This document shows, one piece after another, positions 2,997-62,279 of a DNA stretch of 64,000 nucleotides. The position numbers were made by a program, and so were the translations under genes. The notes below the pieces were generated by a model. It did not search any database, had not been told where the DNA came from, and saw only the letters and a list, made by a program, of their open reading frames with translations. Source of the DNA: a virus; IMG/VR virus record IMGVR_UViG_3300045988_129927; one strand, written 5' to 3'. The first letter of the stretch is position 1; each line of letters opens with the position of its first letter.

Positions 2997-3017
2997 TATA
3001 ATAGTATATATTTAAAA
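2997..3017 (-). promoter_or_regulatory. promoter-like motif, same class
   Basis: Minus strand reads ttttaaatatatactattata. Leader hairpin 2970-2997 follows. Confidence 0.5.
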
Positions 3018-5873: not shown

Positions 5874-5908
5874 ATCAAAAAAAAAGAGAAGTAATCCTTC
5901 TCTTTTTT
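5874..5908. terminator. bidirectional hairpin terminator
   Basis: Stem aaagagaag / cttctcttt, flanked by an A-run and a T-run. Confidence 0.6.
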
Positions 5909-6827: not shown

Positions 6828-6892
6828 AATCTTTCCTTTCTATAAATGTAAAATAAGTTAACGAGAAGAAATAATTTTCTTCTCTTTTCACC

Positions 6893-6913
6893 TTGATAGT
6901 ATGTATTTGAAAA
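6893..6913 (-). promoter_or_regulatory. promoter-like motif, same class
   Basis: Minus strand reads ttttcaaatacatactatcaa. It lies upstream of the DUF1874 gene. Confidence 0.5.
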
Positions 6914-6933
6914 AATCTAAAATACAAAATACA

Positions 6934-7251
6934 TTAGATATTTTCAATAGCCAATTCGATATCTGCAATCTGTTTTCTAACAATAGCTAATTGTTTAAAT
7001 AACTTAACACGCAATTGAGTTAACTCATTAACTTTTGAAGTAAACGATTCATTATCTCCAGATTGTGAACCTCTAAATTGTGAACCTAATGGTACACTAA
7101 ATGGTGGTTTAGTAGCATACAGTACACGCAACTCGTTACTAACTTCCTCATTTGATTTAATGAGTTTAGACTTCACTTCTTGTAAAGAAGCTAAGTCTTC
7201 TTTCAGCATTTTCTTTTGTTGCTCTAAGAATGATTGCATAGTCATTTCCAT
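6934..7251 (-). CDS. small coiled-coil protein (105 aa)
   Basis: ORF with TATATAAAGGAATCTTAAA leader. Heptad-like, Lys/Glu/Leu-rich sequence. Confidence 0.6.
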   Translation of the reverse strand: MEMTMQSFLEQQKKMLKEDLASLQEVKSKLIKSNEEVSNELRVLYATKPPFSVPLGSQFRGSQSGDNESFTSKVNELTQLRVKLFKQLAIVRKQIADIELAIENI

Positions 7252-7307
7252 TTTAAGATTCCTTTATATAAAATATTAAAAAATAGAGAAGTTCTCTTCT
7301 CTTTCAA

Positions 7308-10575: not shown

Positions 10576-12141
10576 TTATACTTCATCGACACCGCGACGT
10601 TCGTGCTCGTATCCTTCATAACCATTGAGGTCTTTCTCTACAGTAATATCAGTAGGAACAGGATATTCGATTACCAGAGCAAATTCACCAGTAAAGATAG
10701 GTTCAAATTCAGGTTTAACACGTACTACACGAGTGAAAGAAGAAGTATCGTATACGTATTGGTCAGATTCTACTTCTTTAGTAGCTGACAAGTCAGTCAA
10801 ATCTAAAGGTTTCAAATTCAATTGACCCAACAGAGTACCGAATACTTGTTGCATTTTAACTTTAGCTTCATCGATAGATTTCACTTCAGGTGCATCCAGA
10901 ATCAAGGCTTTAACACCATTGGTCAGTACACCTTGGGTGAAAGTCAAACCACTTAACAAGTTAGCAGTTTGTTCAGTTACACCTGCTTGAGTCAAGTTGT
11001 CTTTATTGTCGATGAATTCTTTAGGGTATTCACCAATGTCTACTTGTTCTACGAAGACATTGAATTTACCTTTGAATTTCTCTTGCAATTCTACAGCTAA
11101 TTCTTTACCTTTGTATTGCAATACTTTTACTTTTTCGTCAGTTAAAGTTTGAATAGATTCATCGGTAAAGTATTTTTCCAATACTTCATCATCAGCAACT
11201 ACAGGGTTAACTTCCAATAAAGTAGCAGCATCCAGTAAGTTATCTTTCAAGAACTGACCACGTTTTTCTTGGAATGCACGTTCAACGGCTTTACCCAAGA
11301 TGTAGTCTTTACTGAAGTTCTCACCACCAATAGACAAGTTTTCAGTAACAATAGTGTTACCTTTTACTTTCAACTCTTTATTGTCTTTAACACTCAGAGA
11401 ACGGTGTTTACCTTTAATGAATTTAGGACGCAACAATACAGCTTGAGATTGAGCACCCAAGTCCAATACCAGTTTGGTTTTAACTTTAGAACCCAAAGAA
11501 GAAACTTTATGGTAAGCAGTAGGAGTCAATTCGGTAGTACTAGATACACCGTATTCTAAATCACCATCGCTATTGAATTGATAGTACTCACGTGGAGAAC
11601 CATTTACATCATCAGCATGGAGTTTCCATTTAGCCAAGAAACCATCAATGTTTGCTTTTTTAGACAGAGTAGAAACACCGCCTACACGCAATACTTCTTC
11701 AGTATCAGAAACATCAATAGTGTGCTCTTCCTTACCAGTTACTGCTTTCAATAAGTCTAAACGATTGTAGCGGTGGGTAACGATAACATAATCGCCACCA
11801 GTCAATTCATCAGCAGTGAATTGTTTTTCTTCAAAGTAAACAGAACCATCATTAGCTACTTTACGGGCAATGACTTTATTGTCGGTTACTTTTTCAGCAT
11901 TGAATGGAGTAGTAGAAGCAGTGTGTACGACTTCGTTAGTAGTGAAGTCAATTTTATCTGCTACAGATTTACGCAGAATTACATCTACAGAACTGTTAAA
12001 CTCAGCATCACCTGGAGTTTCAGATACTGTAAAATAAACGTTTTCTTGATTTAAGATGGCTTTAGTGTAGCCAGCGTCAATCAAAAGATTTTCAAAGTTA
12101 ACACCGGATTTTACACCGATAGTATATTTAATATTTGCCAT
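10576..12141 (-). CDS. paralog-array protein 3 of 5 (521 aa)
   Basis: MANIKYTIGVKSGVNFENLLIDAGYTKAILNQENVYFT and GEFALVIEYP..VEKDLNGYEG are the closest match to copy 1. Confidence 0.8.
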   Translation of the reverse strand: MANIKYTIGVKSGVNFENLLIDAGYTKAILNQENVYFTVSETPGDAEFNSSVDVILRKSVADKIDFTTNEVVHTASTTPFNAEKVTDNKVIARKVANDGSVYFEEKQFTADELTGGDYVIVTHRYNRLDLLKAVTGKEEHTIDVSDTEEVLRVGGVSTLSKKANIDGFLAKWKLHADDVNGSPREYYQFNSDGDLEYGVSSTTELTPTAYHKVSSLGSKVKTKLVLDLGAQSQAVLLRPKFIKGKHRSLSVKDNKELKVKGNTIVTENLSIGGENFSKDYILGKAVERAFQEKRGQFLKDNLLDAATLLEVNPVVADDEVLEKYFTDESIQTLTDEKVKVLQYKGKELAVELQEKFKGKFNVFVEQVDIGEYPKEFIDNKDNLTQAGVTEQTANLLSGLTFTQGVLTNGVKALILDAPEVKSIDEAKVKMQQVFGTLLGQLNLKPLDLTDLSATKEVESDQYVYDTSSFTRVVRVKPEFEPIFTGEFALVIEYPVPTDITVEKDLNGYEGYEHERRGVDEV

Positions 12142-12163: not shown

Positions 12164-13771
12164 TTATTCTTCGATACCAGTGAATCCGCTTAATTCTTTA
12201 TTTAAGACAGATTCATCATTGTATTCAACAGTAATATTGAATACACCTTCTAACAATGTATCAGTATTTTCAACAGGAACATACTGTTTAGTGAGAGAAG
12301 AAACATCGTAAGTATTGGTTGTTTCTCTTTCTTCCAAATAGAAAGAGACGTTATATTCAGCGTGTAATACATTCATTAAGTCTTGTAATACTTGGCTGGT
12401 ATTTTCTTTGGTAATTAATTCACCTTTAACCAAAAGTGTTTTACTACCGTCATTTAGATTACCCAATGAGAATTTCAATTGAGCAAATTTTTCTTTATAT
12501 GTTTCATCTCTATCAGTCAGTGTAGACTGAATAGTACTGGCTAGTGTACTTAATTCTACAGTAGCTAATTCATCAGCTAATTCACCAAGATTACGGGAAA
12601 TATTTCTTACTGTTAATCTACCTGAGAATAAATCGTAGAAGTTTTCTTTAATCTTAGCTAATTCTTCACCTTCTAGATATACACTGTATTCTTTATGGTT
12701 TGTGGTACCTTCTAAAACAAGACCTTTAAAACCATAAGTGTATATATCGTATCCCAGTTTTGTTTTAGGGGTTACTTCGTCGGTGATATTAACCAATAAT
12801 TCTTGAAAGAAGAAGTCTTTACGTTTACCAGAGTAGTAAGTTTTAATGACGTCTCTAAATAAACCTTTATTGGATAATCTGGATTTAGGTTTATGGAATA
12901 CTACAACAGGATTCTGTGTAACTGAACCAGATTCCAATTCAACAGATACTTCTGTTTTAACAAATTCTTTCAAAGAAGATTGATTAAAGTCTTTTACAAA
13001 CTTAATTGCGTTGTATTGTAAAACATTATCAACTAAGTTCAAGTCCATAGCAGCATGGATATGCAATGATTCAGGTAACGCAAAGAAGCGATGAACGCCT
13101 TTTGGTGTAATCTGAATCTCGCTACCACCTAGTACTGGTGTAAAAGCTTCGTAGGAATAATACTTATCTAAGTTAGTAGCAGGGTCAGTTTGTTGTTCTG
13201 CTTCTTTATCAGGAAATACCAAATGTGTATCATTCTCGTATGTTACCTGACCTTCTTGAACAACCTGTACTTCTCGTACATAACCGTAAATAGTAGGTGT
13301 ATTTGGTTTACGGTTAGCTACCTTTCTAGCTACTTCAATTAATTTTTGACGAGTAAATTCGTGCTCAATAATAGTAAACTCTTTAACGATGTCTTCTTTA
13401 GAAAACTTAAATGGAACATAATCCACGCTGTCGCCAGAATTTACACGTTTGTATACATCGTATACTTGTTTAAATGTGGCATTATCCAAATGCGATTGAA
13501 ATTCAGCGACATCAATGTATTTAGCACCATTAGGTAGAGGTACATCGTTACTATATGTTTTTACTTTAGACTTATCAATCTTAGAAGCAACGTCTTTGGA
13601 AAAAGCAATAAAGAGTTTAGCATTATTGCCTTCCAAAGTATTGTCTTCTAATAACTGAATATAAACATCATCTTCATTCAGGATTTTTTTAGTATATCCT
13701 GCATTCAGTAAAAGTGCTTCGATGTTTATACCAGCAGACTGATGTACATTATACGGAGTCTTATTAGACAT
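12164..13771 (-). CDS. paralog-array protein 4 of 5 (535 aa)
   Basis: Carries NIEALLLNAGYTKKILNEDDVYIQL near the N-terminus and GVFNITVEYN..LNKELSGFTG near the C-terminus. Confidence 0.8.
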   Translation of the reverse strand: MSNKTPYNVHQSAGINIEALLLNAGYTKKILNEDDVYIQLLEDNTLEGNNAKLFIAFSKDVASKIDKSKVKTYSNDVPLPNGAKYIDVAEFQSHLDNATFKQVYDVYKRVNSGDSVDYVPFKFSKEDIVKEFTIIEHEFTRQKLIEVARKVANRKPNTPTIYGYVREVQVVQEGQVTYENDTHLVFPDKEAEQQTDPATNLDKYYSYEAFTPVLGGSEIQITPKGVHRFFALPESLHIHAAMDLNLVDNVLQYNAIKFVKDFNQSSLKEFVKTEVSVELESGSVTQNPVVVFHKPKSRLSNKGLFRDVIKTYYSGKRKDFFFQELLVNITDEVTPKTKLGYDIYTYGFKGLVLEGTTNHKEYSVYLEGEELAKIKENFYDLFSGRLTVRNISRNLGELADELATVELSTLASTIQSTLTDRDETYKEKFAQLKFSLGNLNDGSKTLLVKGELITKENTSQVLQDLMNVLHAEYNVSFYLEERETTNTYDVSSLTKQYVPVENTDTLLEGVFNITVEYNDESVLNKELSGFTGIEE

Positions 13772-15227: not shown

Positions 15228-16751
15228 TTATTGTTGTCCATTCCTACCATGACGGTAAGCATCGATTAAGTTAGCAGCACTTACTTCAGTAACGCGTGGT
15301 TTAACAGGAGCTGGACGCTCGTGTACTGTTTCAGTTTCTTCAGTTACTGCGGGAGCTACAGGAGCTACGGGTGTAGCAGGAGTAGCTGGTTTTTCATAGT
15401 GAGCTACGCCAGAAAAACCACCTAAATTACGTTTAACGACAACAGTCTCTTTTTCAGGTTTATGCTCACAACCACAGTTATCTTCATCACCATTAATTTG
15501 GAGAGTATAGTTAACAATGGCTTTAACATCACCAGAAACATAATCAGAGATTTTATCGTTAGGAGTAACAGAAAGAATCAAGCGATTGGCTTCAGAAGTC
15601 TCTAAACCAATATCTACAAATACAGAATAATCACCTAAGAATTTACGAATAATTTTCTCAGCTTTTTGTTCTGCATTAGTAACAGAAGTCTCTTTACCTA
15701 ATGTGATTTCAAACTCTACAAAGTTTTTATTAGTTTTAGAGAATACGAAACTACGCACCTTATCTTCTTTAAAGCGATAGGCTTGTTCTTCTTCTACTGG
15801 GAATAAGTTAGAATCCAGTAAAAGTTTAGACAAGTAACCACGAGCTACCATCAAGCGAATATTACCTACTACAGCAGATGTTTCATCTTCTTGTTGTTCT
15901 TTAGACAAAGTATACAAGTAAGAGTATGCGTAGTTAGCGGAAGCTTTCTTCTCAATAGATTGTTCTTCATTTGCAGGAGCACGCAGTTCTTGTTTGAAGT
16001 TAGGATTACGAACGATGTCGATGACTTCATCGTCGATTTCTTTTAAGATGGCTTTACTGCGAATCATGCCATATGCTTCACGCAAATAGCGGTCTAGAAT
16101 ACGACGTTCAGTTTCTTGAACAGTAACGGCAGGTGGAACCACCATCTCAATATAGCAGTCTTTTTTATTCATTTGTACAGTATTGACAAATGGGTTTACT
16201 ACTGCTACAATCTTAGCTTGTTTGTGACCTAAATCGACAAAGTATTGTACTTTTTGATAAGCTACACCAGTCAAACCATAGCTACGTGGAGAAGGACGTA
16301 CTTCTACTAAGTTACGACCATAACGTAAACCACCAGCTGTACCTTGTACATCAAATGACAGGTTTTCACCTAAGAATGGAAAGCCATCATTAGTCCAAAC
16401 ATTTTTAATGTATTGGTCAATACTGATGTTTTCCATTTCAGAATCACGCACGTACATGATTTTGTTTTGCCATTTATCTGGAATAGGCTTCACACGGTCG
16501 TAGAAGTGGACGTTAGAAGTCTTTTTGGTTAGCTTAGCCAATTCACCAGAGTAACTTACTTTCAAAGCAGTGTTACCTACTTTGTCTTGGTATACATCAA
16601 ACTCTGGATTAGATGAATCTTTTACTGATTCAATCGTTACATCATCCAGTAATTCTTCTGGAATACCAGCGGCTTCCAAAATACGATTGATGTTATCAAT
16701 ACCCGTAACTCGTGGGTCGTAAGGCATTAGCTTATTTGCATTGTCTACCAT
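15228..16751 (-). CDS. paralog-array protein 5 of 5, divergent (507 aa)
   Basis: NINRILEAAGIPEELLDDVTIESV and VVVKRNLGGFSG fit the family N- and C-terminal patterns. Adds a PATPATPVAPVAPAV linker and a basic tail. Confidence 0.7.
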   Translation of the reverse strand: MVDNANKLMPYDPRVTGIDNINRILEAAGIPEELLDDVTIESVKDSSNPEFDVYQDKVGNTALKVSYSGELAKLTKKTSNVHFYDRVKPIPDKWQNKIMYVRDSEMENISIDQYIKNVWTNDGFPFLGENLSFDVQGTAGGLRYGRNLVEVRPSPRSYGLTGVAYQKVQYFVDLGHKQAKIVAVVNPFVNTVQMNKKDCYIEMVVPPAVTVQETERRILDRYLREAYGMIRSKAILKEIDDEVIDIVRNPNFKQELRAPANEEQSIEKKASANYAYSYLYTLSKEQQEDETSAVVGNIRLMVARGYLSKLLLDSNLFPVEEEQAYRFKEDKVRSFVFSKTNKNFVEFEITLGKETSVTNAEQKAEKIIRKFLGDYSVFVDIGLETSEANRLILSVTPNDKISDYVSGDVKAIVNYTLQINGDEDNCGCEHKPEKETVVVKRNLGGFSGVAHYEKPATPATPVAPVAPAVTEETETVHERPAPVKPRVTEVSAANLIDAYRHGRNGQQ

Positions 16752-18500: not shown

Positions 18501-19442
18501 TTAGAAGAAGTTACATGGGTGCTTATTGAAAATTTTACCTTCACCGGCGGTCAGTTTAGGAATACTAGAAATCAAGATAGGTTTAGTCGTATTGACCTTA
18601 CCATTGATTTCAGGTACTTCAGTTGCTTGACCAGTAAGTACCGCATTTTCAGCTTCACTAAAGCGACCCAAGTACATATTGTCATACTGACCATTGTACC
18701 AACGGCTGATGAAGTTACTATTTGACATATCGGAAGAGTGAGTAAACTTGTTTTTGTTTCGCAAAACCAAGCTGTCAAAATCACGATAGTTCACATCAAT
18801 GGTATTTTTATTGAGGTCTGCACTAGAGACAATCTCCAAAGTACCATTAGGCATATTACCACTACGGGCAGGACTACCATCAGGACCCATAGAAATGTAA
18901 CGATAGCGACCTACTGGGTGTTGGAATGACTCTACACCCGCACTAGAGAACTCACCACCGTTTGCCATTGCGAAGAGCACAAATGAATTGGTATTAGGTT
19001 TAGCACAAGTGAAGACCATGGTTACATGATTGCCGTCGATGTCACCCATGTAACGATAGACTGGACCACCAGCTTCTACTACCTTACGAATTTCAAAGTT
19101 AGTAGTACCTTCTTTAAACAAAGTCCAACCATTACCAAAGTGGATGGTTGCACCGTTATCTTCAGTAGTCAAGCCACTACCATCATCCATGGCTTGTTCT
19201 TCAGGTGTGAGTTCAGTATCATCAACATTACCTGATGGGTCATTGGCGACTTCACCAGGTGTACCTTCTTTATCAGACAAAGCACGCAGTACGATAGCCT
19301 GCGCGTCTTTGTCCAAATTCTTAAAGTCATCAGAAGAGATAGTTTCTTTGATAACTTCGTCATTTGATTTAGTCTTTGCTTCTTCTTTAGAGCAAGCAGT
19401 TAAAGCAGCCAAGACAGCGATAGAGAGAATCAGTTTATTCAT
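18501..19442 (-). CDS. lipoprotein (313 aa)
   Basis: MNKLILSIAVLAALTAC is a signal peptide with lipobox L-T-A-C. TATATAAAGGAAATTCAAA leader. Confidence 0.7.
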   Translation of the reverse strand: MNKLILSIAVLAALTACSKEEAKTKSNDEVIKETISSDDFKNLDKDAQAIVLRALSDKEGTPGEVANDPSGNVDDTELTPEEQAMDDGSGLTTEDNGATIHFGNGWTLFKEGTTNFEIRKVVEAGGPVYRYMGDIDGNHVTMVFTCAKPNTNSFVLFAMANGGEFSSAGVESFQHPVGRYRYISMGPDGSPARSGNMPNGTLEIVSSADLNKNTIDVNYRDFDSLVLRNKNKFTHSSDMSNSNFISRWYNGQYDNMYLGRFSEAENAVLTGQATEVPEINGKVNTTKPILISSIPKLTAGEGKIFNKHPCNFF

Positions 19443-19506
19443 TTTGAATTTCCTTTATATAAGTAGATTAAGATTTAAATAGTGAAAGGAGAAATCATCC
19501 TTTTCA

Positions 19507-19528
19507 CTATAGTAGTATAGGTTTAAAA
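19507..19528 (-). promoter_or_regulatory. promoter-like motif, same class
   Basis: Minus strand reads ttttaaacctatactactatag. The leader hairpin gtgaaaaggatgatttctcctttcac follows. Confidence 0.5.
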
Positions 19529-20431: not shown

Positions 20432-21061
20432 TTATGTTTTAATACGGTAGAACTGATGATGTCCTACACGCACACTTTTTATAGCACGTGGTGCTGGTCG
20501 TACACCGTTTGAGCTAAAGAAGATACTACCACCTGTGTTGTCTACACGACGACCTGATACATGTTTCTGATAGATGTCACGTGCAATAGCACGAGCTTCT
20601 TCAGTAGGTGCTGTTCGAGAACGCAGTTTGTGGTTATGGTACCATTGAAATTGTCCGCGTTGTGTAACGACTTTACGGACGGTATTAGGAAAGCTTTTGT
20701 GTTTTACTCGATTGAGAATCACATTAGCCACTGCGTATTTACCACTACGAGGCTCACCACGTGCTTCATTGTGGATAGCCAAAGCCAACATATCGACTTC
20801 ACTGTTAGGAGATACATTAACTTCTTCTTTAACTACCTTTTGGTGGGTATTCTTTACATGCTTTTTAAGGTGGTGCTTCACCACTACGTGACGCACGTGT
20901 TTCTTAATACGAGGGTGTTTCTTCACTTTGTGTTTCTTGTGAAGTTTCACTACCTTGTGGGGTTTGTGTTTAGACTTCTTTACTTTGTGTGGTTTAGCTT
21001 CAGCTGAATAGGCCGTAGCTGCTAAACCTACTGCTACTAATGCTCCAATAAATTTCTTCAT
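20432..21061 (-). CDS. secreted SleB-type (Hydrolase_2) cell-wall hydrolase, probable endolysin (209 aa)
   Basis: Sec signal MKKFIGALVAVGLAATAYSA. A roughly 60-aa His/Lys-rich tract follows. The C-terminal domain LALAIHNEARGEPRSGKYAVANVILNRV...FPNTVRKVVTQRGQFQWY matches the SleB/CwlJ-type motif. Confidence 0.7.
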   Translation of the reverse strand: MKKFIGALVAVGLAATAYSAEAKPHKVKKSKHKPHKVVKLHKKHKVKKHPRIKKHVRHVVVKHHLKKHVKNTHQKVVKEEVNVSPNSEVDMLALAIHNEARGEPRSGKYAVANVILNRVKHKSFPNTVRKVVTQRGQFQWYHNHKLRSRTAPTEEARAIARDIYQKHVSGRRVDNTGGSIFFSSNGVRPAPRAIKSVRVGHHQFYRIKT

Positions 21062-21073
21062 TTGATACTCCTA

Positions 21074-21574
21074 TTACTTAATGGTTTTATACAAATCTTC
21101 TACCACATCAATGTGGTCAGAAATTTTCTTAGAAATACGATGGCAAGCATCTTCCATCTTATCTAAGATATCTTCTGCTTTATAACATTCGTTATAAGTA
21201 GAAATGATATATTCATCTTGAGCAAACTTCAAAATAGAATAATGCTCATGGTCACTGAATCCTGCACTGTCGTACAGTTCAAATTCAATAGTGCCAGTGT
21301 GAGCATCTTTAATATAGACTTTAATGTCTATTTTAAGTATGCGATCATTAAATATTTTCCCATCTGTACCATACACTGGTTCAGCTACTTTGAATTTGAC
21401 TTGTTTACAACGAGGTTCTTCTTCATTTAACCAGTATTGGATATTCTTGATGATGTCTTTGTGAATATCCTTTGGAGTATGGTAAGCATTATTAAAATAC
21501 TCACCAAATTCTTTAGGTTGGTTTTGGTTTTTATTAACCAGATTGATGATTTGATTTTTGATGTATTTAAACAT
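21074..21574 (-). CDS. hypothetical protein (166 aa)
   Basis: ORF with TATATAAAGGAAACTTATC leader. No motif recognised. Confidence 0.65.
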   Translation of the reverse strand: MFKYIKNQIINLVNKNQNQPKEFGEYFNNAYHTPKDIHKDIIKNIQYWLNEEEPRCKQVKFKVAEPVYGTDGKIFNDRILKIDIKVYIKDAHTGTIEFELYDSAGFSDHEHYSILKFAQDEYIISTYNECYKAEDILDKMEDACHRISKKISDHIDVVEDLYKTIK

Positions 21575-21630
21575 GATAAGTTTCCTTTATATAAAGTGAG
21601 AAAATAGACGATTAATATTAATCGTTTTCA

Positions 21631-21651
21631 ATATAATAATATAGATTTGAA
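21631..21651 (-). promoter_or_regulatory. promoter-like motif, same class
   Basis: Minus strand reads ttcaaatctatattattatat. It abuts structured element copy A. Confidence 0.5.
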
Positions 21652-21722
21652 TTAATATTAAATTAATTCAAGCGACTTAGGTCTTAGGTGTTTTACACAC
21701 CGTAAGTTATTTAAATTAATTT
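21645..21722. repeat. structured intergenic element, copy A
   Basis: atttgaattaat-atta-aattaattcaa-gCGACTTAGgtcttaggtgt-ttta-cacacCGTAAGTTAT-ttaaattaattt. Confidence 0.6.
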
Positions 21723-21744: not shown

Positions 21745-21785
21745 GGAAAAAAAGAAAGACAATGCTTGCTACACTGTCTTTCTTT
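21745..21785 (-). terminator. rho-independent terminator of the orphan small ORF
   Basis: 11-bp stem (aaagaaagaca / tgtctttcttt), a 13-nt loop and a T7 run on the minus strand. Confidence 0.6.
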
Positions 21786-30869: not shown

Positions 30870-30890
30870 TTAAATAGTATAGATTTGAAA
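30870..30890 (-). promoter_or_regulatory. promoter-like motif, same class
   Basis: Minus strand reads tttcaaatctatactatttaa. It is followed by about 235 nt without an ORF, then terminator 30627-30664. Confidence 0.5.
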
Positions 30891-30912
30891 TATTTTAGAA
30901 TATAGAAATAAT

Positions 30913-31128
30913 TCAAACGCTTTTACCTTTTAAGATTTGTAAGAAGAATGGGCCTTTAGCATTATAAGAATTACGGATAAGTTTAGGACAAGAATAATAT
31001 ATCTTATCAACATTATCTTGTTTTAGTTTATCTAAACTATTTCTTGTAAAGCGATTAGGGTGTTTATATTGAAATAGGTATTTCTTAATAACTATAACAA
31101 CAGGACTGTAGATGAAAGTATACTTCAT
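30913..31128 (-). CDS. small basic protein, tandem paralog c (71 aa)
   Basis: KKYLFQYKHPNRF resembles NKYF.xYKSKxRF in the two upstream ORFs. AAGGAGGTCAATAA RBS. Confidence 0.5.
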   Translation of the reverse strand: MKYTFIYSPVVIVIKKYLFQYKHPNRFTRNSLDKLKQDNVDKIYYSCPKLIRNSYNAKGPFFLQILKGKSV

Positions 31129-32804: not shown

Positions 32805-32908
32805 AATACTACTCCTTTACCATAATAGCCACAAGCTAAACCTAATAGAAATACAACAATTAAAATAATTGCTGATAGAATAGTATCAATACTGAATAAT
32901 TGTTTCAT
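32801..32908 (-). CDS. single-pass membrane micro-protein (35 aa)
   Basis: Hand translation gives MKQLFSIDTILSAIILIVVFLLGLACGYYGKGVVL. It has the canonical TATATAAAGGAAACAAAAA leader and the promoter motif at 32951-32971. Below the track size cutoff. Confidence 0.55.
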   Translation of the reverse strand: MKQLFSIDTILSAIILIVVFLLGLACGYYGKGVVL

Positions 32909-32950
32909 TTTTTGTTTCCTTTATATAAAAGACTAAGAGACAATTCTCAA

Positions 32951-33954: not shown

Positions 33955-34266
33955 TTAAAGAAAGTTAAAGCCATCAGAAATGACTCGTGTCATTTCTGGA
34001 ACTTCAGTATTTTGTTTGGTTTCAAGATACTGTTTAAACCGGCGTGCTTCACCGGATTTCTTTACTTTGTATTTTAACTCTTTAATGCGCTCTTTGATTT
34101 TTTCTTTAGAGTTAATTTCAATAACTTTAACTTCTGTTTCTACCAATTCTACAGTAGTTTCTGGAATACTTTCTACTACTGTTTCACCAGTGGCTTCGAT
34201 ATTATTTTTGGTAGCCATACCATGCAATAAATTTGCATACTTGTTTAAATTTTCTTTACGATTCAT
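33955..34266 (-). CDS. hypothetical Lys/Glu-rich protein (103 aa)
   Basis: ORF with TAAATAAAGGAAACTAAAA leader. Confidence 0.6.
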   Translation of the reverse strand: MNRKENLNKYANLLHGMATKNNIEATGETVVESIPETTVELVETEVKVIEINSKEKIKERIKELKYKVKKSGEARRFKQYLETKQNTEVPEMTRVISDGFNFL

Positions 34267-34321
34267 TTTTAGTTTCCTTTATTTAAGATGAAAAATAATA
34301 AGGAGATAATTCCTTTACCAA

Positions 34322-34342
34322 TTTAATAATATATATCTGAAA
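34322..34342 (-). promoter_or_regulatory. promoter-like motif, same class
   Basis: Minus strand reads tttcagatatatattattaaa. It abuts structured element copy B. Confidence 0.5.
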
Positions 34343-34397
34343 TATTCTATATTTCAGACGACTTAGGTGTAGAACACCGTAAGTTATCTGAAATATT
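34335..34397. repeat. structured intergenic element, copy B
   Basis: atctgaaatatt-ct-atatttcag-aCGACTTAGgtgt-aga-acacCGTAAGTTAT-ctgaaatattt. Confidence 0.6.
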
Positions 34398-34438
34398 TTA
34401 TAATCTTTTTAAATATAAATTAAACTATAAATAATTAA

Positions 34439-34474
34439 ATACTACTCTACCACATTATCGTGGTAGAGTAGTAT
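34439..34474 (-). terminator. hairpin terminator
   Basis: 15-bp perfect stem (atactactctaccac / gtggtagagtagtat) and a 6-nt loop. Confidence 0.6.
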
Positions 34475-34501
34475 CCATTATTTAATACAAATCAATTAGT
34501 A

Positions 34502-38524: not shown

Positions 38525-39082
38525 CTATTTTGCTTTAATTCCTTTTAAAATAGAGAACGGGTTATTCTCTTTTGCGAACTTGCGGTCACTACGACGACGA
38601 CTCTCTTCAGAGCGGATTTTAGCTGCTTCTTTTTCCGCTGCACGACGTTCTTCGTATTCGTCTTTTATTTCCCACCAGTGCATGTCTGATGGAGCAGCTG
38701 ACTCGTGAACTGTGATGTCAGCACTTTCCTTCTTAAATGCTGGATCAGAGTCCTTCATCATTTCGATGAAGTCACGAATACGGCTCCGGCGACCTGAGAA
38801 GAAAGCAATATGTTCACCATCATGGTCAATCATGCCCCATGCGTTGCCGCCGCATGTAACATATTGGGCTACAGTATCCGATGTAGTCCAACCGCATTTA
38901 ACTTCGTCGTTATCGGCGTTGTAAAACTTAGTTACGCGCTTAACGATTGGTGGGAAGATGTTACCGTCAATTGTTCTACGACCATGCGGTGTGTCGTAGA
39001 AGTTGTCTGCTTCACGGGTTTCTTTTGCTACTTCAACCCATTTTTCAAATACTTCTTTAGATACATTTAATGTCAAAAACAT
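38525..39082 (-). CDS. hypothetical protein, GC-richer paralog 2 (185 aa)
   Basis: Preceded by the 64-bp leader that is identical to the one at 54943-55006. C-terminal charged helix (RRAAEKEAAKIRSEESRRRSDRK). Confidence 0.7.
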   Translation of the reverse strand: MFLTLNVSKEVFEKWVEVAKETREADNFYDTPHGRRTIDGNIFPPIVKRVTKFYNADNDEVKCGWTTSDTVAQYVTCGGNAWGMIDHDGEHIAFFSGRRSRIRDFIEMMKDSDPAFKKESADITVHESAAPSDMHWWEIKDEYEERRAAEKEAAKIRSEESRRRSDRKFAKENNPFSILKGIKAK

Positions 39083-39143
39083 AGTAAACTCCTTAAGTTT
39101 GTTGTTGAAAGAATTAAATTGGAAAGATTCCTCTCTCTTTCCA
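39080..39143 (-). repeat. 64-bp leader repeat, copy 1 (hairpin, leader, SD and ATG)
   Basis: Plus strand reads catagtaaactccttaagtttgttgttgaaagaattaaattggaaagattcctctctctttcca, identical to 54943-55006. Confidence 0.9.
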
Positions 39144-39166
39144 CTATAGTAGTATATGTTTGAAAA
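39144..39166 (-). promoter_or_regulatory. promoter-like motif, same class
   Basis: Minus strand reads ttttcaaacatatactactatag. The 64-bp shared leader follows. Confidence 0.5.
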
Positions 39167-39242
39167 AATCTAGAATACATTAAAACATAGTAATAAATAG
39201 ACACTATACGGATATCCGTATAGTGTCTAAATATATTAGTTA

Positions 39243-54267: not shown

Positions 54268-54945
54268 TTAACCCATAATAGGTTTGAACATATGGAAGTT
54301 TTCACGAATGTACTCCATGCGAGCTTCAGCATCGGCTTTTATTTCAGCAGCGTCTTTGCAGACTTTCAGAGCCACTGGGTACATTGTCGATAATACATTT
54401 GCAATATCGTCAGCTGTACCAGTACCGAGGCGCACACAGTCGAAGCAATAGGCATCAATCTCTGCTTCGTATTGAACCTGTTCTAGCTCTTTAAGGAGTG
54501 CTTGCATCTTCGGTGTTGCAAAGTAAAGACCAGACAATTCCGTATTAACTTCACGAATGGTACGACCATCCAGATAGAAGTTTCTGAATTGTACTGCGTG
54601 TAGAAGTTCGTGAGGCAAGATGTTTTTATCAACATTCAACATTGCCTTGAGCTGTTTACGCAAGTTCTTAGAGAAAATACTACAGAAAGCAAAGAATGCT
54701 TTCAGAGTAGGGTTAAGGAACTTAATAATTACCTTATCCTTATCTGCAAGGTACGCACCTTGCATATTATAATTTCTCATGAATTCACGTTCAGAATCTC
54801 TTAAGAAGTTCATGCTTCCTAGATTATCTGCGGTTACGATTGTCTTACCACCATATCTCTTTTGAAACCATTTTTGACGGTCTACTTTTACATCAAGGTT
54901 AGTGAACATGGATTCGTTGTATTGAAAGTTAAATTTGATAGCCAT
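54268..54945 (-). CDS. HExxH metallopeptidase-like protein (225 aa)
   Basis: LPHELLHAVQF is an HExxH motif and resembles the HEL[TA]HV.Q signature of DUF4157-type domains (from memory). Locally higher G+C. Preceded by the 64-bp leader shared with the gene at 38525. Confidence 0.6.
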   Translation of the reverse strand: MAIKFNFQYNESMFTNLDVKVDRQKWFQKRYGGKTIVTADNLGSMNFLRDSEREFMRNYNMQGAYLADKDKVIIKFLNPTLKAFFAFCSIFSKNLRKQLKAMLNVDKNILPHELLHAVQFRNFYLDGRTIREVNTELSGLYFATPKMQALLKELEQVQYEAEIDAYCFDCVRLGTGTADDIANVLSTMYPVALKVCKDAAEIKADAEARMEYIRENFHMFKPIMG

Positions 54946-55006
54946 AGTAAACTCCTTAAGTTTGTTGTTGAAAGAATTAAATTGGAAAGATTCCTCTCTC
55001 TTTCCA
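54943..55006 (-). repeat. 64-bp leader repeat, copy 2
   Basis: Identical 64 nt to 39080-39143, checked base by base. Confidence 0.9.
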
Positions 55007-55027
55007 TTTTAATAGTATATATCTGAA
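55007..55027 (-). promoter_or_regulatory. promoter-like motif, same class
   Basis: Minus strand reads ttcagatatatactattaaaa. It abuts element copy C and is followed by the 64-bp shared leader. Confidence 0.5.
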
Positions 55028-55088
55028 TTAATCTAAATTAATTCAGACGACTTAGATACTTTGTATCGTAAGTTATTTGAAATAAAAT
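55021..55088. repeat. structured intergenic element, copy C
   Basis: atctgaattaat-cta-aattaattcag-aCGACTTAGatac-ttt-gtatCGTAAGTTAT-ttgaaataaaat. Confidence 0.6.
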
Positions 55089-55106
55089 AAAATGTATTAG
55101 AGTATA

Positions 55107-55142
55107 TTAATAGACTAGGGTAATGTTACCCTAGTCTATTAA
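55107..55142 (-). terminator. hairpin terminator; arms identical to the hairpin at 54223
   Basis: About 15-bp stem built on the same aatagactaggg / ccctagtctatt arms. Confidence 0.6.
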
Positions 55143-55152
55143 TATTTATTCT

Positions 55153-55389
55153 TTAGTCATTCAACATTCTGTTAAGCTTAAGCATATTTTCATTGATGAA
55201 TTTCAAACGAACTTTATCAGTAATCATTTTATCACCTTGCTCTTTCAGTTCATTGTGGCGTTTTTCAGCTGCACGATATACACTACCATCATCAGTATAA
55301 GCGTACCAGAAATCAAACCCATCGTACTTCTTAACGTATTCTTTTTCTACGTCAGTTAATACGAAGTTTTCTAAAGTATAATTTTCCAT
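55153..55389 (-). CDS. hypothetical protein (78 aa, start revised)
   Basis: ATG at 55389 (MENYTLENF...) follows the TATATAAAGGAAACTAAA leader. The track start at 55422 lies inside the leader. Confidence 0.6.
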   Translation of the reverse strand: MENYTLENFVLTDVEKEYVKKYDGFDFWYAYTDDGSVYRAAEKRHNELKEQGDKMITDKVRLKFINENMLKLNRMLND

Positions 55390-55429
55390 TTTAGTTTCCT
55401 TTATATAAAGATTAAGAGACAATTCTCAA

Positions 55430-62248: not shown

Positions 62249-62269
62249 TTTAATAATATATACCTGAAA
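62249..62269 (-). promoter_or_regulatory. promoter-like motif, same class
   Basis: Minus strand reads tttcaggtatatattattaaa. It lies upstream of the RNAP beta-like gene, in a 98-bp divergent region. Confidence 0.45.
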
Positions 62270-62279
62270 GGTTTTACAA

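What the first reader, a model, noticed from the sequence alone, without database searches (positions are those of the whole stretch)
34335..34397. Three-copy intergenic element with X / X' / conserved core hairpin / X architecture and compensatory changes
Copies lie at 21645-21722, 34335-34397 and 55021-55088. All share the invariant core CGACTTAG...CGTAAGTTAT.

Between the core arms the stem differs but stays complementary: GGTGT/ACACC, GTGT/ACAC and ATAC/GTAT. The same bulged G is present each time.

The core is preceded by a hairpin whose arms also covary: CTGAAATAT/ATATTTCAG, CTGAATTAAT/ATTAATTCAG and TTGAATTAAT/ATTAATTCAA. It is followed by a third segment that repeats the first arm almost exactly. 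In copy B, ATCTGAAATATT occurs twice.

The middle segment can therefore pair either upstream or downstream, giving two mutually exclusive folds. One fold is a roughly 22-bp extended hairpin.

The flanking direct repeats also look like target-site duplications of a roughly 40-50 bp insert placed in the TTTGAAAT part of the promoter motif. Each copy directly abuts a promoter-like motif.

Possible roles are a miniature mobile element, an operator for a phage regulator, an RNA switch, or a processing site.
Basis: seen in the sequence. Interest (0 to 1): 0.65.

Follow-up and report, generated by a model that had tools for sequence, protein, structure and literature searches.

The report
Tiny hairpin-pair mobile repeat in phage
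The three look-alike intergenic hairpin motifs are copies of a roughly 51-base, non-coding, two-hairpin repeat that is gained, lost, duplicated and overwritten among closely related uncultured giant (phiKZ-like) phages, most often landing just upstream of the phage's own early promoters.

Summary
CGACTTAG..CGTAAGTTAT occurs three times on the + strand, with 0 expected by chance. Each copy lies between a terminator hairpin and a recurrent early-promoter-like motif of a phiKZ-like jumbo phage.

The same unit occurs in every related ~230-244 kb metagenomic phage genome I could fetch, at 22 or more distinct sites and about 5-8 copies per genome. It was found nowhere else.

Both hairpins covary strongly. 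At least 12 sites have filled and empty alleles among relatives. All three window copies are missing from some relatives, and the window is empty at five or more sites that are filled elsewhere.

Indel size varies (37-64 nt), and flanking direct repeats vary from 0 to 11 nt. Targets resemble the element's own head-to-tail junction (..GTTAY|YTGAAWT..), which is also what the upstream edge of the promoter looks like.

Best reading: a miniature mobile repeat spread by short-homology copy-in. The X/X'/K/X pattern and the alternative fold are by-products of insertion. No transposase, Rfam family or CRISPR repeat matches. RNA or protein-binding function remains untested.

The parts
21646..21672 (+). 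Copy A, hairpin H1 (X/X'): TTTGAATTAAT-attaa-ATTAATTCAAG. The 5' arm is the promoter's native upstream element.
   Evidence: Sequence; hairpin. The whole unit (64 nt) is absent in relatives L069, L070, L071 and L074.
21673..21710 (+). Copy A, core hairpin K. It carries a 7-nt internal tandem duplication (CTTAGGT x2), so this copy is damaged.
   Evidence: the K stem does not form fully. The undamaged version of the same allele is in L125.
34336..34358 (+). Copy B, hairpin H1: TCTGAAATAT-tct-ATATTTCAGA.
34359..34387 (+). Copy B, core hairpin K: CGACTTAG GTGT aga ACAC C(G)TAAGTTAT.
   Evidence: The covariance model scores the unit at 78.5 bits. The site is filled in L077 and L113 and empty in L005.
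34386..34397 (+). Copy B, third segment X2 (ATCTGAAATATT). It exactly repeats 34335-34346 and pairs with X' to give the extended fold of about 22 bp.
   Evidence: (10/10 match).
55022..55047 (+). Copy C, hairpin H1: TCTGAATTAAT-ctaa-ATTAATTCAGA.
55048..55076 (+). Copy C, core hairpin K: upper stem ATAC/GTAT, loop TTT.
   Evidence: The 54-nt unit is absent from L037, L059, L063, L065 and L068, and present in L094 and L104.
21634..21643 (-). Early-promoter-like core next to copy A. It reads TAATAATATA on the + strand and TATATTATTA on the gene strand. It drives the gene at 21074-21574.
   Evidence: Recurrent motif. Analogy with the AR9 early promoter AAATATATATTAT-(6N)-G(+1) from PMC5312081.
34324..34333 (-). 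Early-promoter-like core next to copy B, upstream of the gene at 33955-34266.
55010..55019 (-). Early-promoter-like core next to copy C, upstream of the gene at 54268-54945.
34436..34477 (-). Terminator-like hairpin plus T-run that ends the gene upstream of copy B. Equivalent hairpins lie at 21751-21785 and 55104-55145.
3004..3005 (+). Empty site in the window. Relatives L004, L091, L127, L045 and L110 carry a clean 51-53-nt H1+K unit exactly here, between TAGTATA and TATTTAAAAT.
5885..5905 (.). Empty site in the loop of a terminator hairpin (AAAGAGAAG-taatc-CTTCTCTTT). It is filled in L107 in one orientation and in L109, L114 and L125 in the other.
6892..6918 (+). Empty promoter site. L108 carries a 50-nt unit here.
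30872..30920 (+). Promoter with an H1-like imperfect palindrome but no K. Relatives carry one or two units here (L056, L057, L009, L096, L136), an inverted unit (L003, L054), and a gene cassette of about 470 nt flanked by K units.

Best explanation
**What it is.** The three copies belong to a family of miniature, non-coding, hairpin-pair repeats specific to one clade of uncultured phiKZ-like jumbo phages.
- The unit has two parts.
  - H1 is an AT-rich hairpin with a 6-12-bp stem (YYTGAAWT..AWTTCARR). A deletion form, CCTGAAAGG, also occurs.
  - K follows it: CG-ACTTA-G-[4-5 variable but paired bp]-[3-nt loop]-[..]-C-(bulged G)-TAAGT-TAY.
- The commonest unit length is 51 nt. The short form is 37 nt.

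**How it most likely works.**
- The unit is mobile in the population sense. It is copied into new places, duplicated in tandem, inverted, overwritten and lost.
- The most likely route is short-homology copy-in, meaning ectopic gene conversion or replication template switching from an existing copy. A transposase with fixed ends is less likely.
- Landing sites resemble the unit's own head-to-tail junction (..GTTAY|YTGAAWT..).
- The upstream edge of the virion-RNA-polymerase early-promoter consensus (TAGTATA-nn-TTTGAAAT on the + strand) looks just like that junction, so promoters are the favourite landing pad.
- Because the unit starts with a TTGAAAT-like arm, the promoter keeps a consensus upstream element after insertion.
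- The X / X' / core / X layout and the alternative extended fold in copy B are therefore by-products of where and how the unit lands.

**Shown.**
- The family exists and is restricted to this clade.
- Both hairpins covary.
- Many sites have filled and empty alleles.
- Junctions are variable.
- K tops are replaced as patches.

**Inferred.**
- The copying mechanism.
- That the element is largely selfish or neutral and is tolerated because it is compact and preserves the promoter or terminator it enters.
For: **The family is real and clade-restricted.**
- The core pattern was found only in related phage contigs of about 230-244 kb: 5 IMG/VR loci and about 50 metagenome loci.
- Three further loci lie on phage contigs binned into one 'Gemella' genome assembled from a metagenome.
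- The other 43 genome hits have no hairpin.
- Nothing was found in 50,697 cultured phage records.
- The covariance model finds 32 + 65 hits in the fetched relatives.

**Covariation.**
- K: 20 distinct sequences, 96% of cells paired, 6 of 10 pairs changed on both sides, 0 of 500 shuffles as good, and the signal collapses when partners are slid.
- H1: 19 distinct hairpins, 181 of 191 Watson-Crick pairs. Self-complementarity is 0.95 against 0.67 for arms taken from different copies.

**Mobility.**
- At least 12 sites have both filled and empty alleles.
- These include clean 51-nt indels within otherwise about 94% identical DNA.
- All three window copies are absent from some relatives.
- Tandem pairs, truncated copies, decayed copies and inverted copies all occur.

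**Homology-guided rather than fixed-end insertion.**
- Indel sizes are 37, 49-54, 57 and 64 nt.
- Flanking repeats are 0, 5, 7, 8, 9 or 11 nt and imperfect.
- The insertion phase differs between sites. It is H1-first at most sites, K-first in L092 compared with L093, and shifted by 3 nt at window 3004.
- Targets mimic the start of H1 or the end of K. Two examples are TTAC|TTAAATTATTTTAT against unit start TTGAATTATTTTAT, and CACCG|AGTTACC against K's CACCGTAAGTTATC.

**Patch replacement.**
- At one orthologous 5'-UTR site the flanks differ at 2 of 240 positions.
- At the same site the K top and loop differ at 5 of 11 positions, including two fully compensated pairs, while the K base differs at 0 of 17.

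**No dedicated enzyme in view.** No transposase, HUH, HNH or recombinase Pfam family appears in the 64 window ORFs scanned.

**Location of the window copies.** Each lies between a terminator and a promoter. If termination is efficient, that DNA is not part of either flanking transcript.
Against: - The base of K (ACTTA/TAAGT, the bulged G, and the flanking CG and TTA) is almost invariant, while its top varies freely but stays paired. That pattern is what sequence-plus-shape recognition by a protein would give. It fits a dedicated mobilising enzyme or a regulatory binding protein at least as well as passive recombination.
- Only about a quarter of each relative's genome was in hand, so a trans-acting enzyme encoded elsewhere cannot be excluded.
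- One 5'-UTR site is filled in all 11 genomes sampled, which could reflect selection for a function.
- Most copies share one orientation relative to the neighbouring genes, as expected for an RNA-level role or a strand-specific single-stranded-DNA mechanism.
- Template switching within quasi-palindromes can create 'compensatory' changes without selection, so covariation does not say whether DNA or RNA is the folded species.
- No transcript, binding or activity data exist.
Confidence: 0.55

Rival explanations
1. A non-autonomous element mobilised in trans by a dedicated enzyme acting on folded single-stranded DNA. This would work like REP elements moved by their RAYT transposase, or like IS200/IS605-type hairpin ends. 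K would be the recognition hairpin, and ..TTAY the target or cleavage context.
For: - K has a conserved base, a bulged base and conserved nucleotides flanking the foot of the hairpin, with a free but paired top.
- 3-nt loops predominate.
- The left flank is very often ..TTA/TTAC, and the unit itself ends ..GTTAY.
- Units insert into the loops of terminator hairpins and directly after another K.
- There are no terminal inverted repeats, and one insertion is clean with no duplication.
- Orientation is biased.
Against: - Ends and phase are not constant. Insert length, junction repeats (0-11 nt) and phase (K-first or H1-first) all vary.
- No Y1/HUH or other transposase domain is present among the 64 window ORFs scanned.
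- K occurs in no bacterial genome among 185,579 species representatives apart from binned phage contigs. A host-encoded enzyme with its own resident K repeats is therefore unlikely.
- The four nucleotides 5' of the foot of K show no obvious pairing rule with TTAY (read from the sequence).
Confidence: 0.17
2. A cis-acting RNA element that selection keeps and recombination spreads. K, with or without H1, would be a recognition hairpin in polycistronic or 5'-UTR RNA for a processing endoribonuclease, a stabilising 3'-end structure, or a translational regulator.
For: - Strong pairing covariation with a conserved base and bulge.
- Several copies sit in 5' UTRs 10-15 nt upstream of the ribosome-binding site. 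One such site is filled in all 11 genomes sampled.
- All copies are intergenic.
- Most are oriented so that the same strand is in the sense RNA.
- The few non-Watson-Crick cells in K are mostly A.C on the + type strand, which is G.U on the sense strand (read).
- Copy B can form a helix of about 22 bp, the size RNase III needs (the RNase III requirement is from my own knowledge).
Against: - About half the sites, including all three in the window, lie between a terminator and the next promoter core, so they are outside both transcripts unless there is read-through.
- Both orientations occur at one terminator-loop site, and an inverted copy occurs at another promoter.
- Most sites are dispensable, being empty in close relatives.
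- Damaged and truncated copies persist.
- Wobble pairs at the base of H1 point to the opposite strand, so the strand evidence conflicts.
- No Rfam family matches.
Confidence: 0.15
3. A DNA-level operator. A phage or host protein would bind the palindromes (H1 and/or K) next to selected early promoters to switch them off or on.
For: - About 10 of 22 sites abut the early-promoter core.
- H1 is often a perfect or near-perfect palindrome overlapping the promoter's upstream element.
Against: - The same unit sits in terminator loops, in 5' UTRs and between convergent genes.
- Palindrome arms covary rather than keep a fixed sequence, which is not how dimeric operator sites usually behave (the expectation for operators is from my own knowledge).
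- Orthologous promoters work with or without the unit in close relatives.
Confidence: 0.06
4. An RNA switch or attenuator that uses two mutually exclusive folds, with X' pairing either upstream or downstream.
For: In copy B both folds exist and lie within 3.6 kcal/mol of each other.
Against: - The downstream partner (X2) is complementary only in promoter-adjacent copies and is absent elsewhere in the family.
- Copies A and C prefer the two-hairpin fold.
- X2 is simply the promoter's original upstream element, present in the empty alleles.
- No U-tract follows either hairpin.
Confidence: 0.03
5. An RNA anti-CRISPR: solitary units that mimic a host CRISPR repeat.
For: - K is a 28-29-nt hairpin-containing unit found in intergenic phage DNA, often near promoters, as described for solitary repeat units (PMC10651486).
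- Nucleus-forming phages are exposed mainly to RNA-targeting CRISPR systems (from my own knowledge).
Against: - Three scans of one genome per species for 185,579 species found K-like sequence only in the phage contigs and never in an array.
- The upper stem differs between copies within one genome.
- Copies lie inside terminator loops.
Confidence: 0.02

Closest known systems
REP / BIME / REPIN elements of bacteria, mobilised by RAYT (TnpA-REP) transposases
   Same: - Short (20-40 nt) extragenic imperfect palindromes.
- Conserved nucleotides at the foot of the hairpin, a bulge or mismatch, and a variable but paired upper stem.
- Found singly, in pairs and in clusters between genes and near terminators.
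- Non-coding, and polymorphic in presence between strains.
   Different: - The present element is in a virulent-type jumbo phage, not a bacterial chromosome.
- It has 5-8 copies per genome, not hundreds.
- Its unit is two different hairpins in tandem, not a convergent pair of the same palindrome.
- No RAYT gene was seen in the sequence examined.
- Junctions point to short-homology copying.
MITEs, for example Correia elements or the MITEs reported in viral genomes (bioRxiv 10.1101/2024.01.18.576219, seen only as a search hit)
   Same: - Small, non-coding and AT-rich.
- Multi-copy and insertion-polymorphic.
- Can carry or alter promoter elements.
   Different: - No terminal inverted repeats and no fixed-length target-site duplication.
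- At 37-64 nt it is at or below the size of the smallest MITEs.
- No related autonomous insertion sequence was found.
IS200/IS605-family ends and their miniature derivatives (PATEs)
   Same: - Sub-terminal imperfect hairpins with a bulged base.
- No inverted-repeat ends, and insertion without duplication is possible.
- A preference for a short T/A-rich target. IS608 uses TTAC (from my own knowledge), and here the left flank is often TTAC or TTAT.
   Different: - Variable ends and phase.
- The two hairpins are unrelated to each other.
- No TnpA gene was found.
- No guide/target pairing rule is evident.
PeSL (promoter-early stem-loop) cassettes of T4-type phages (PMC2839356, PMC4122927)
   Same: - Short composite terminator/promoter repeats in a large virulent phage.
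- They act as points of homologous exchange and flank small variable gene cassettes.
- Here a cassette of about 470 nt in L056, L009 and L136 is bracketed by K units, and promoter-to-promoter exchange is visible (L104).
   Different: - PeSLs are the functional terminator and promoter themselves.
- H1+K is an extra, dispensable insert with its own conserved hairpin. It also lands in non-promoter sites.
Very small dispersed repeats (SDRs, 21-27 nt) of cyanobacteria
   Same: - Ultra-small palindromic units that insert without obvious duplications, nest and form tandems.
- No known enzyme.
   Different: - Different sequence, size and host.
- A two-hairpin architecture.
- A phage genome.
RNase III processing hairpins of phage T7 early and late RNAs (from my own knowledge)
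   Same: - A family of similar intergenic hairpins with an internal bulge.
- Located near promoters and ribosome-binding sites of a virulent phage.
   Different: - The T7 sites are transcribed and are conserved in position.
- Here half the copies lie outside predicted transcripts, most are dispensable, and only copy B can make a helix about 20 bp long.

Membership tests
MITE | Terminal inverted repeats at the two ends of the element | tested here: not met
   The unit starts YYTGAAWT and ends CGTAAGTTAY, and these ends are not reverse complements of each other. The inverted repeats are internal, forming two separate hairpins.
MITE | Target-site duplication of fixed length | tested here: not met
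   Filled-versus-empty alignments give flanking repeats of 0, 5, 7, 8, 9 and 11 nt, all imperfect.
MITE | Multi-copy, non-coding and insertion-polymorphic | tested here: met
   At least 22 sites, at least 12 of them with both alleles, unit length 37-64 nt.
REP/REPIN (RAYT-mobilised) | Short extragenic imperfect palindrome with conserved nucleotides 5' of the stem | tested here: met
   K has invariant CG 5' of the stem, the ACTTA/TAAGT base, a bulged G and a covarying top. All copies are intergenic.
REP/REPIN (RAYT-mobilised) | A cognate RAYT (Y1 HUH) gene in the same genome | tested here: inconclusive
   None of the 64 window ORFs scanned matches a transposase family. However, about 75% of the phage genome and the whole host genome were not examined.
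IS200/IS605-derived miniature element | Defined left and right ends, with insertion 3' of a specific tetra- or pentanucleotide and no duplication | tested here: not met
   The left flank is often TTAC or TTAT, but the ends and phase vary between sites. Examples are K-first in L092 and a 3-nt shift at window 3004.
PeSL-type recombination cassette | A repeat made of a functional early promoter plus an upstream terminator stem-loop, at the borders of variable genes | tested here: inconclusive
   The terminator-promoter layout exists, and a cassette bracketed by K units exists. But H1+K is separate from both the terminator and the promoter, and it also occurs elsewhere.
RNA anti-CRISPR (solitary repeat unit) | At least 90% identity to a CRISPR repeat of a plausible host (criterion from PMC10651486) | tested here: not met
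   No array and no non-phage occurrence in genome contigs with three K patterns. A dedicated CRISPR-repeat database was not available.
Known structured RNA families (Rfam) | A match at the family's gathering score | tested here: not met
   No matches in the whole window.
Riboswitch / attenuator | Alternative pairings conserved across members | tested here: not met
   The X2 partner is present only in promoter-adjacent copies. It scores 10/10 in copy B but is low or unrelated at the terminator-loop and 5'-UTR copies.
RNase III-type processing site | Lies in a transcript and forms about 20 bp of near-continuous helix that is cleaved in vivo | not testable with these tools
   Only copy B reaches about 22 bp. 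No transcript data are available.

The most novel reading that the evidence does not exclude
K is the recognition hairpin of an as yet unidentified phage-encoded enzyme that acts on single-stranded DNA or on RNA. H1+K would then be a new class of ultra-small (about 51 nt) mobile element native to nucleus-forming jumbo phages. It would home to the upstream edge of virion-RNA-polymerase early promoters while re-supplying the promoter element it displaces. By bracketing small gene cassettes, it would drive modular gene shuffling in these phages.
Probability: 0.15. Interest if true: 0.8.

Novelty: new variant of a known kind. Interest (0 to 1): 0.55.

Why it matters
Small hairpin repeats such as REPs, MITEs and PeSLs shape bacterial and T4-type phage genomes. 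I found no report of one in phiKZ-like, nucleus-forming jumbo phages in the papers I searched.

**What this family offers.**
- It comes with an unusually clean natural experiment. Dozens of filled and empty alleles exist within otherwise 90-99% identical DNA. These alleles expose how very short homologies move about 50 nt of DNA between promoters, terminator loops and 5' UTRs in a virulent phage.
- It marks the early promoters of an uncultured oral phage clade.
- It gives ready-made allelic pairs for testing what the upstream part of a virion-RNA-polymerase promoter does.
- It may point to recombination hot spots that exchange small gene cassettes.
- If K turns out to have a protein partner, it would give a compact hairpin-protein pair from a phage group whose RNA and DNA transactions inside the phage nucleus are poorly known.

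**Practical consequences.** These repeats can break metagenomic assemblies, and they can be mistaken for regulatory RNA motifs because of their 'compensatory' changes.

Tried and rejected
**Searches that found nothing.**
- Rfam at gathering thresholds over the whole window: no hit.
- tRNA/tmRNA scan: none.
- Megablast of the region against 50,697 phage records: no match. A sensitive blastn of copy B against the same set gave only partial chance hits with E of 0.03 or worse.

**CRISPR-repeat mimic: rejected.** Three scans of the species-representative genomes found K only in phage contigs binned with a 'Gemella' metagenome-assembled genome, and never in arrays.

**Dedicated transposase or homing nuclease in the window: none found.**
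- Pfam on 64 ORFs gave only structural, polymerase, thymidylate synthase, Clp protease, helicase, cell-wall hydrolase and phiKZ internal-head families. PHROGs was run on 10 ORFs.
- Pfam on six genes downstream of conserved 5'-UTR, terminator-loop and other copies in relatives gave no informative match.

**Fixed target-site duplication: rejected** from the junction alignments.

**IS608-like guide/target pairing between the nucleotides 5' of K and TTAY:** no rule evident from the sequence.

**Strand of function from G.U against A.C counts: inconclusive.**
- Five transition-type mismatches in K and in one inverted copy favour the gene-sense strand.
- Five terminal T.G pairs in H1 favour the other strand. 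Those appear to be junction effects where the native promoter arm meets an imported X'.

**Other ideas checked.**
- K as a second (middle or late) promoter: no resemblance to the published phiKZ or AR9 motifs.
- Sigma-70 promoter scan around the copies: no more hits than in shuffles.
- H1 as a native feature of all promoters: rejected. Perfect 10-11-bp hairpins occur only at the three K-bearing promoters in the window.
Full report
**1. Observation.** The pattern CGACTTAG-N(4-30)-CGTAAGTTAT matches three times in the window, all on the + strand: 21673-21710, 34359-34387 and 55048-55076. None of 100 dinucleotide-preserving shuffles gave a match. Reading the sequence confirms the rest of the description.
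- Each core is a hairpin, which I call K. It has a conserved base (ACTTA/TAAGT), a G bulged from the 3' arm, a 4-5-bp top that differs between copies but stays complementary, and a 3-5-nt loop.
Its arms differ between copies but remain complementary.
- In copy B the 12-mer ATCTGAAATATT occurs on both sides, at 34335-34346 and 34386-34397.
- All three regions fold much better than shuffles on either strand, with z from -3.5 to -6.1.

Two corrections are needed.
- Copy A's K contains a 7-nt tandem duplication (CTTAGGT twice) and no longer folds as a single stem.
- The extended hairpin of about 22 bp is the best fold only for copy B, at -22.4 against -18.8 kcal/mol.

**2. Setting.**
- The window is 33% G+C.
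- It encodes split RNA polymerase beta-like subunits and a DNA polymerase related at about 30-36% identity to those of phiKZ-like jumbo phages.
- It also encodes phiKZ-type internal head proteins.
- It has no close cultured relative.
- Nearly all genes around the three copies are on the minus strand.
- A motif recurs at least a dozen times upstream of gene starts. On the + strand it reads TCAcTAtAaTAGTATAgaTTTgAAAt. On the gene strand it reads aTTTcAAAtcTATACTAtTAtaGTGA.
- The motif resembles the AT-rich early promoters that virion RNA polymerases of such phages use, centred near -10. AR9 has AAATATATATTAT-(6N)-G(+1) (PMC5312081; PMC7598289). Here TATACTAT-(6N)-G fits the same spacing.
- Read along the gene strand, each of the three copies lies in the 40-60 nt between a terminator-like hairpin with a T-run and one of these promoter cores.

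**3. The family outside the window.**
- Exact-pattern scans found the core in five IMG/VR loci and in 63 metagenome stretches. About 50 of those are true copies, lying on some ten contigs of 229-244 kb.
- Three further loci lie on phage contigs binned into one 'Gemella sp.' genome assembled from a metagenome.
- The other 43 hits in 185,579 species-representative genomes show no hairpin and are chance matches.
- Two further allele-specific scans again found only those phage contigs.
- A covariance model built from 11 copies found 32 + 65 matches in the related DNA fetched.
- Counting pattern and model hits per contig gives about 5-8 copies per genome. This is a lower bound, because only neighbourhoods of hits were fetched.
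- The element is therefore a low-copy family confined, as far as these collections show, to one clade of uncultured jumbo phages.

**4. Structure and covariation.**
- Twenty distinct K sequences align without gaps.
- For K, 96% of cells form standard pairs and 6 of 10 pairs show changes on both sides (28 cells). None of 500 shuffles reached the observed values. Sliding the partners by 1-3 columns drops pairing to 23-39%.
- Variation is concentrated in the top four pairs. The alleles are GTGT/ACAC, ATAC/GTAT, GCGT/ACGC and GTGC/GCAC.
- The base is nearly invariant, though rare variants exist. One has ACACA/TGTGT. Others have an inserted C that pairs with the otherwise bulged G.
- For H1, 19 distinct hairpins have 181 of 191 Watson-Crick pairs, 5 G.T pairs and 5 mismatches. 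Arms from different copies are only 67% complementary.
- A short form of H1, CCTGAAAGG, looks like an internal deletion of CCTGAA...TTCAGG and gives a 37-nt unit.
- Pairing is clearly maintained. However, template switching within quasi-palindromes can produce matched changes at the DNA level (from my own knowledge), so this does not show that RNA is the folded species.

**5. Presence/absence polymorphism.** I joined the flanks of every copy and searched all fetched DNA for places where they are contiguous. This found at least 12 sites with both filled and empty alleles.
- The cleanest case is in the window itself. Around 3004/3005 the window reads TAGTATA|TATTTAAAATTATTTTG. L004, about 94% identical over 7.3 kb, has exactly 51 extra bases there: GACCTGAAATATTTTATATTTCAGGCGACTTAGGTGTTATACACCGTAAGT. 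The flanks next to the insert are identical and there is no duplication.
- Copy C is absent from L037, L059, L063, L065 and L068 (a 54-nt difference). It is present in L094 and L104.
- Copy A is absent from L069, L070, L071 and L074 (64 nt).
- Copy B is present in L077 and L113 and absent from L005.
- The window is also empty at a terminator loop (about 5885-5905), at promoters near 6905 and 22100, at a 5' UTR near 1426, and at the 30.9-kb promoter. All of these are filled in some relative.

**6. Where the units sit.** There are four contexts.
- About ten sites lie against an early-promoter core.
- Several sites are in 5' UTRs, 10-15 nt upstream of the ribosome-binding site. These carry the short H1.
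- Four sites are inside the loops of terminator hairpins.
- A few sites are elsewhere between genes.

Copies also occur in several altered states.
- Tandem pairs occur, both identical pairs (L134) and pairs of different alleles (L001, L092, L121, L122, L074).
- Truncated copies (L009) and decayed copies (L037) occur.
- Some copies carry internal duplications (window copy A; L057).

Orientation is mostly the same relative to neighbouring genes, but not always. One terminator loop holds the unit in one orientation in L107 and in the other in L109, L114 and L125. L003 and L054 carry an inverted unit at the 30.9-kb promoter.

**7. Junction anatomy and mechanism.** Four points come out of the filled-versus-empty alignments.
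- Insert sizes are 37, 49-54, 57 and 64 nt.
- Flanking direct repeats are 0, 5, 7, 8, 9 or 11 nt and imperfect.
- The phase differs between sites. It is usually H1 then K. In L092 compared with L093 the extra 51 nt are K then H1, bounded by GCGACTTA. At window 3004 the insert starts 3 nt before H1 and stops 3 nt before the end of K.
- The target resembles part of the unit itself, usually the start of H1 and/or the end of K.
  - TTAC|TTAAATTATTTTAT received a unit beginning TTGAATTATTTTAT.
  - CACCG|AGTTACC received a unit whose K ends CACCGTAAGTTATC.
  - Terminator loops with GTAA received units ending CGTAAGTTAC.

Put together, targets look like the head-to-tail junction of the unit (..GTTAY|YTGAAWT..). 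That junction also matches the upstream edge of the promoter consensus (TATAkaTTTGAAAT).

Copies also exchange sequence.
- At one orthologous 5'-UTR site, L080 and L103 differ at 2 of 240 flanking positions. They differ at 5 of 11 positions in the K top and loop, including two fully compensated pairs, and at none of 17 base positions.
- In L104 the promoter-proximal arm of H1 has been replaced by the upstream element of a paralogous promoter, so H1 no longer pairs fully.

These features fit short-homology copy-in: ectopic gene conversion or replication template switching between copies and look-alike sites. They fit cut-and-paste by an enzyme with fixed ends less well. No transposase, HUH, HNH or recombinase family appears among the 64 window ORFs scanned.

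**8.
- X-X'-core-X arises because a unit that begins with a TTGAAAT-like arm lands beside the promoter's own TTTGAAAT element.
- The distal X is the original promoter sequence. It is present in the empty alleles.
- The proximal X comes with the insert, or is the native element where recombination resolved further out.
- Complementarity between X' and the distal segment is high only at promoter-adjacent copies. It is 10/10 in copy B and 9/11 in copy A. It is low or unrelated at the terminator-loop and 5'-UTR copies.
- The alternative fold is therefore incidental, not a conserved switch.
- After insertion the promoter still matches its consensus through TTCARAT, which may be why promoter sites tolerate the unit.

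**9. Rivals.** The main weakness of the passive-recombination view is the near-invariance of K's base, bulge and flanking nucleotides beside a free but paired top. That is the classic signature of recognition by a protein.
- A trans-acting single-stranded-DNA enzyme (REP/RAYT-like or IS200/IS605-like) remains possible. Most of each genome and the host were not examined.
- An RNA-level role such as processing, stability or a translational operator is possible for the transcribed copies. One 5'-UTR site is filled in all 11 genomes sampled. Against it, half the copies lie between a terminator and a promoter, most sites are dispensable, both orientations occur, and the wobble-pair evidence for a strand conflicts.
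- An operator for early promoters does not explain the non-promoter copies.
- A CRISPR-repeat mimic is not supported.
- No Rfam family matches.

**10. Comparison and novelty.**
- In behaviour the family is closest to bacterial REP/BIME-type palindromic repeats and to other very small mobile repeats.
- In genomic role it is closest to the PeSL terminator/promoter cassettes that mediate modular exchange in T4-type phages (PMC2839356, PMC4122927).
- A gene cassette of about 470 nt, present in L056, L009 and L136 between window positions 30901 and 30908, is bracketed by K units.
- The family fails the MITE definition, having no terminal inverted repeats and no fixed duplication. It also fails the fixed-end rule of IS200/IS605 elements.
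- I rate it a new variant of a known kind: a two-hairpin, roughly 51-nt repeat native to nucleus-forming-type jumbo phages, with promoter edges as preferred landing sites.

**11. Limits.**
- No transcript, binding or activity data exist, and the host is unknown.
- The binning with a Gemella genome assembled from a metagenome and a Hydrolase_2 cell-wall hydrolase domain are only hints of a Bacillota host.
- Gains and losses were not polarised on a phylogeny.
- Only parts of the relatives' genomes were available.

Noticed in passing
window + strand cores at 1447, 2999, 7310, 19510, 21634, 32953, 34324, 39147, 55010, 55432, 59774 and 62251; variants near 6895, 22080, 25441 and 30872: A motif recurs upstream of minus-strand genes. 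On the gene strand it reads aTTTcAAAtcTATACTAtTA-(about 6 nt)-G. It fits the pattern of virion-RNA-polymerase early promoters of phiKZ- and AR9-type phages (AT-rich consensus near -10, start 6 nt downstream).
   Followed up: partly
window, e.g. 2970-2998, 19481-19509, 54983-55006 and 21606-21626: Each promoter-like core is immediately followed, in the direction of transcription, by a short hairpin that would sit at the very 5' end of the transcript. An example is GTGAAAGGAACCGTCGTCCCTTTCAC. The stem sequences differ between promoters.
   Followed up: no
window 7246-7281, 19437-19463, 32903-32938, 34261-34296, 55383-55415 and others (repeat families D6, D8, D9, D15, D16): The translation-initiation region is highly repetitive. 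On the gene strand it reads TTTATATAAAGGAAnnnnAAAATG, a shared leader and ribosome-binding site in front of many genes.
   Followed up: no
window 39066-39177 vs 54929-55040: A 112-nt repeat at 87% identity covers the start, 5' UTR and promoter of two genes (38525-39082 and 54268-54945). The 39-kb copy has no H1+K unit, so it is an in-window 'empty' paralogue of copy C's promoter. In L104 its upstream element appears to have replaced the proximal arm at the copy C site.
   Followed up: partly
L056 16178-16646 (also L009, L136), relative to window 30901-30908: Relatives carry an extra cassette of about 470 nt here, containing a small gene with its own promoter and terminator. It is bracketed by K units on both sides. 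L066 has a similar cassette at the copy C site, joined through an H1 hairpin without K.
   Followed up: partly
window 62251-62271: A promoter-like core is followed by TACCTGAAAGG, the short form of H1, with no K. This is either a footprint of a lost unit or the ancestral sequence from which the short H1 derives. No K was found at this site in the relatives fetched.
   Followed up: partly
window 7393-8916, 8936-10489, 10576-12141, 12164-13771 and 15228-16751 (minus strand): Five neighbouring genes of 507-535 aa share DNA-level repeats (families D10, D11 and D17), so they are probably paralogues. No Pfam family matched them.
   Followed up: no
L107 5205-5257 vs L109 1316-1362, L114 480-536 and L125 1582-1640 (window 5885-5905 is the empty allele): The same terminator loop holds the unit in opposite orientations in different genomes. 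This suggests either inversion of the loop contents through the terminator's own inverted arms or two independent insertions.
   Followed up: partly
L009, L037, L045, L137, L138 (contigs CALHQV010000351, CALHQV010000132, CALHQV010000305 and CALHQV010000280): Contigs of a close relative of this phage are binned in a genome assembled from a metagenome and labelled 'uncultured Gemella sp.'. The window gene 20432-21061 has a Hydrolase_2 (SleB-type) cell-wall hydrolase domain. Together these are weak hints of a Bacillota host.
   Followed up: no
L058 (IMGVR_UViG_3300008472_000019), contig end near the position equivalent to window 55000-55045: This metagenomic contig ends within a few tens of bases of the copy C site. 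Repeats of this kind may break assemblies.
   Followed up: no
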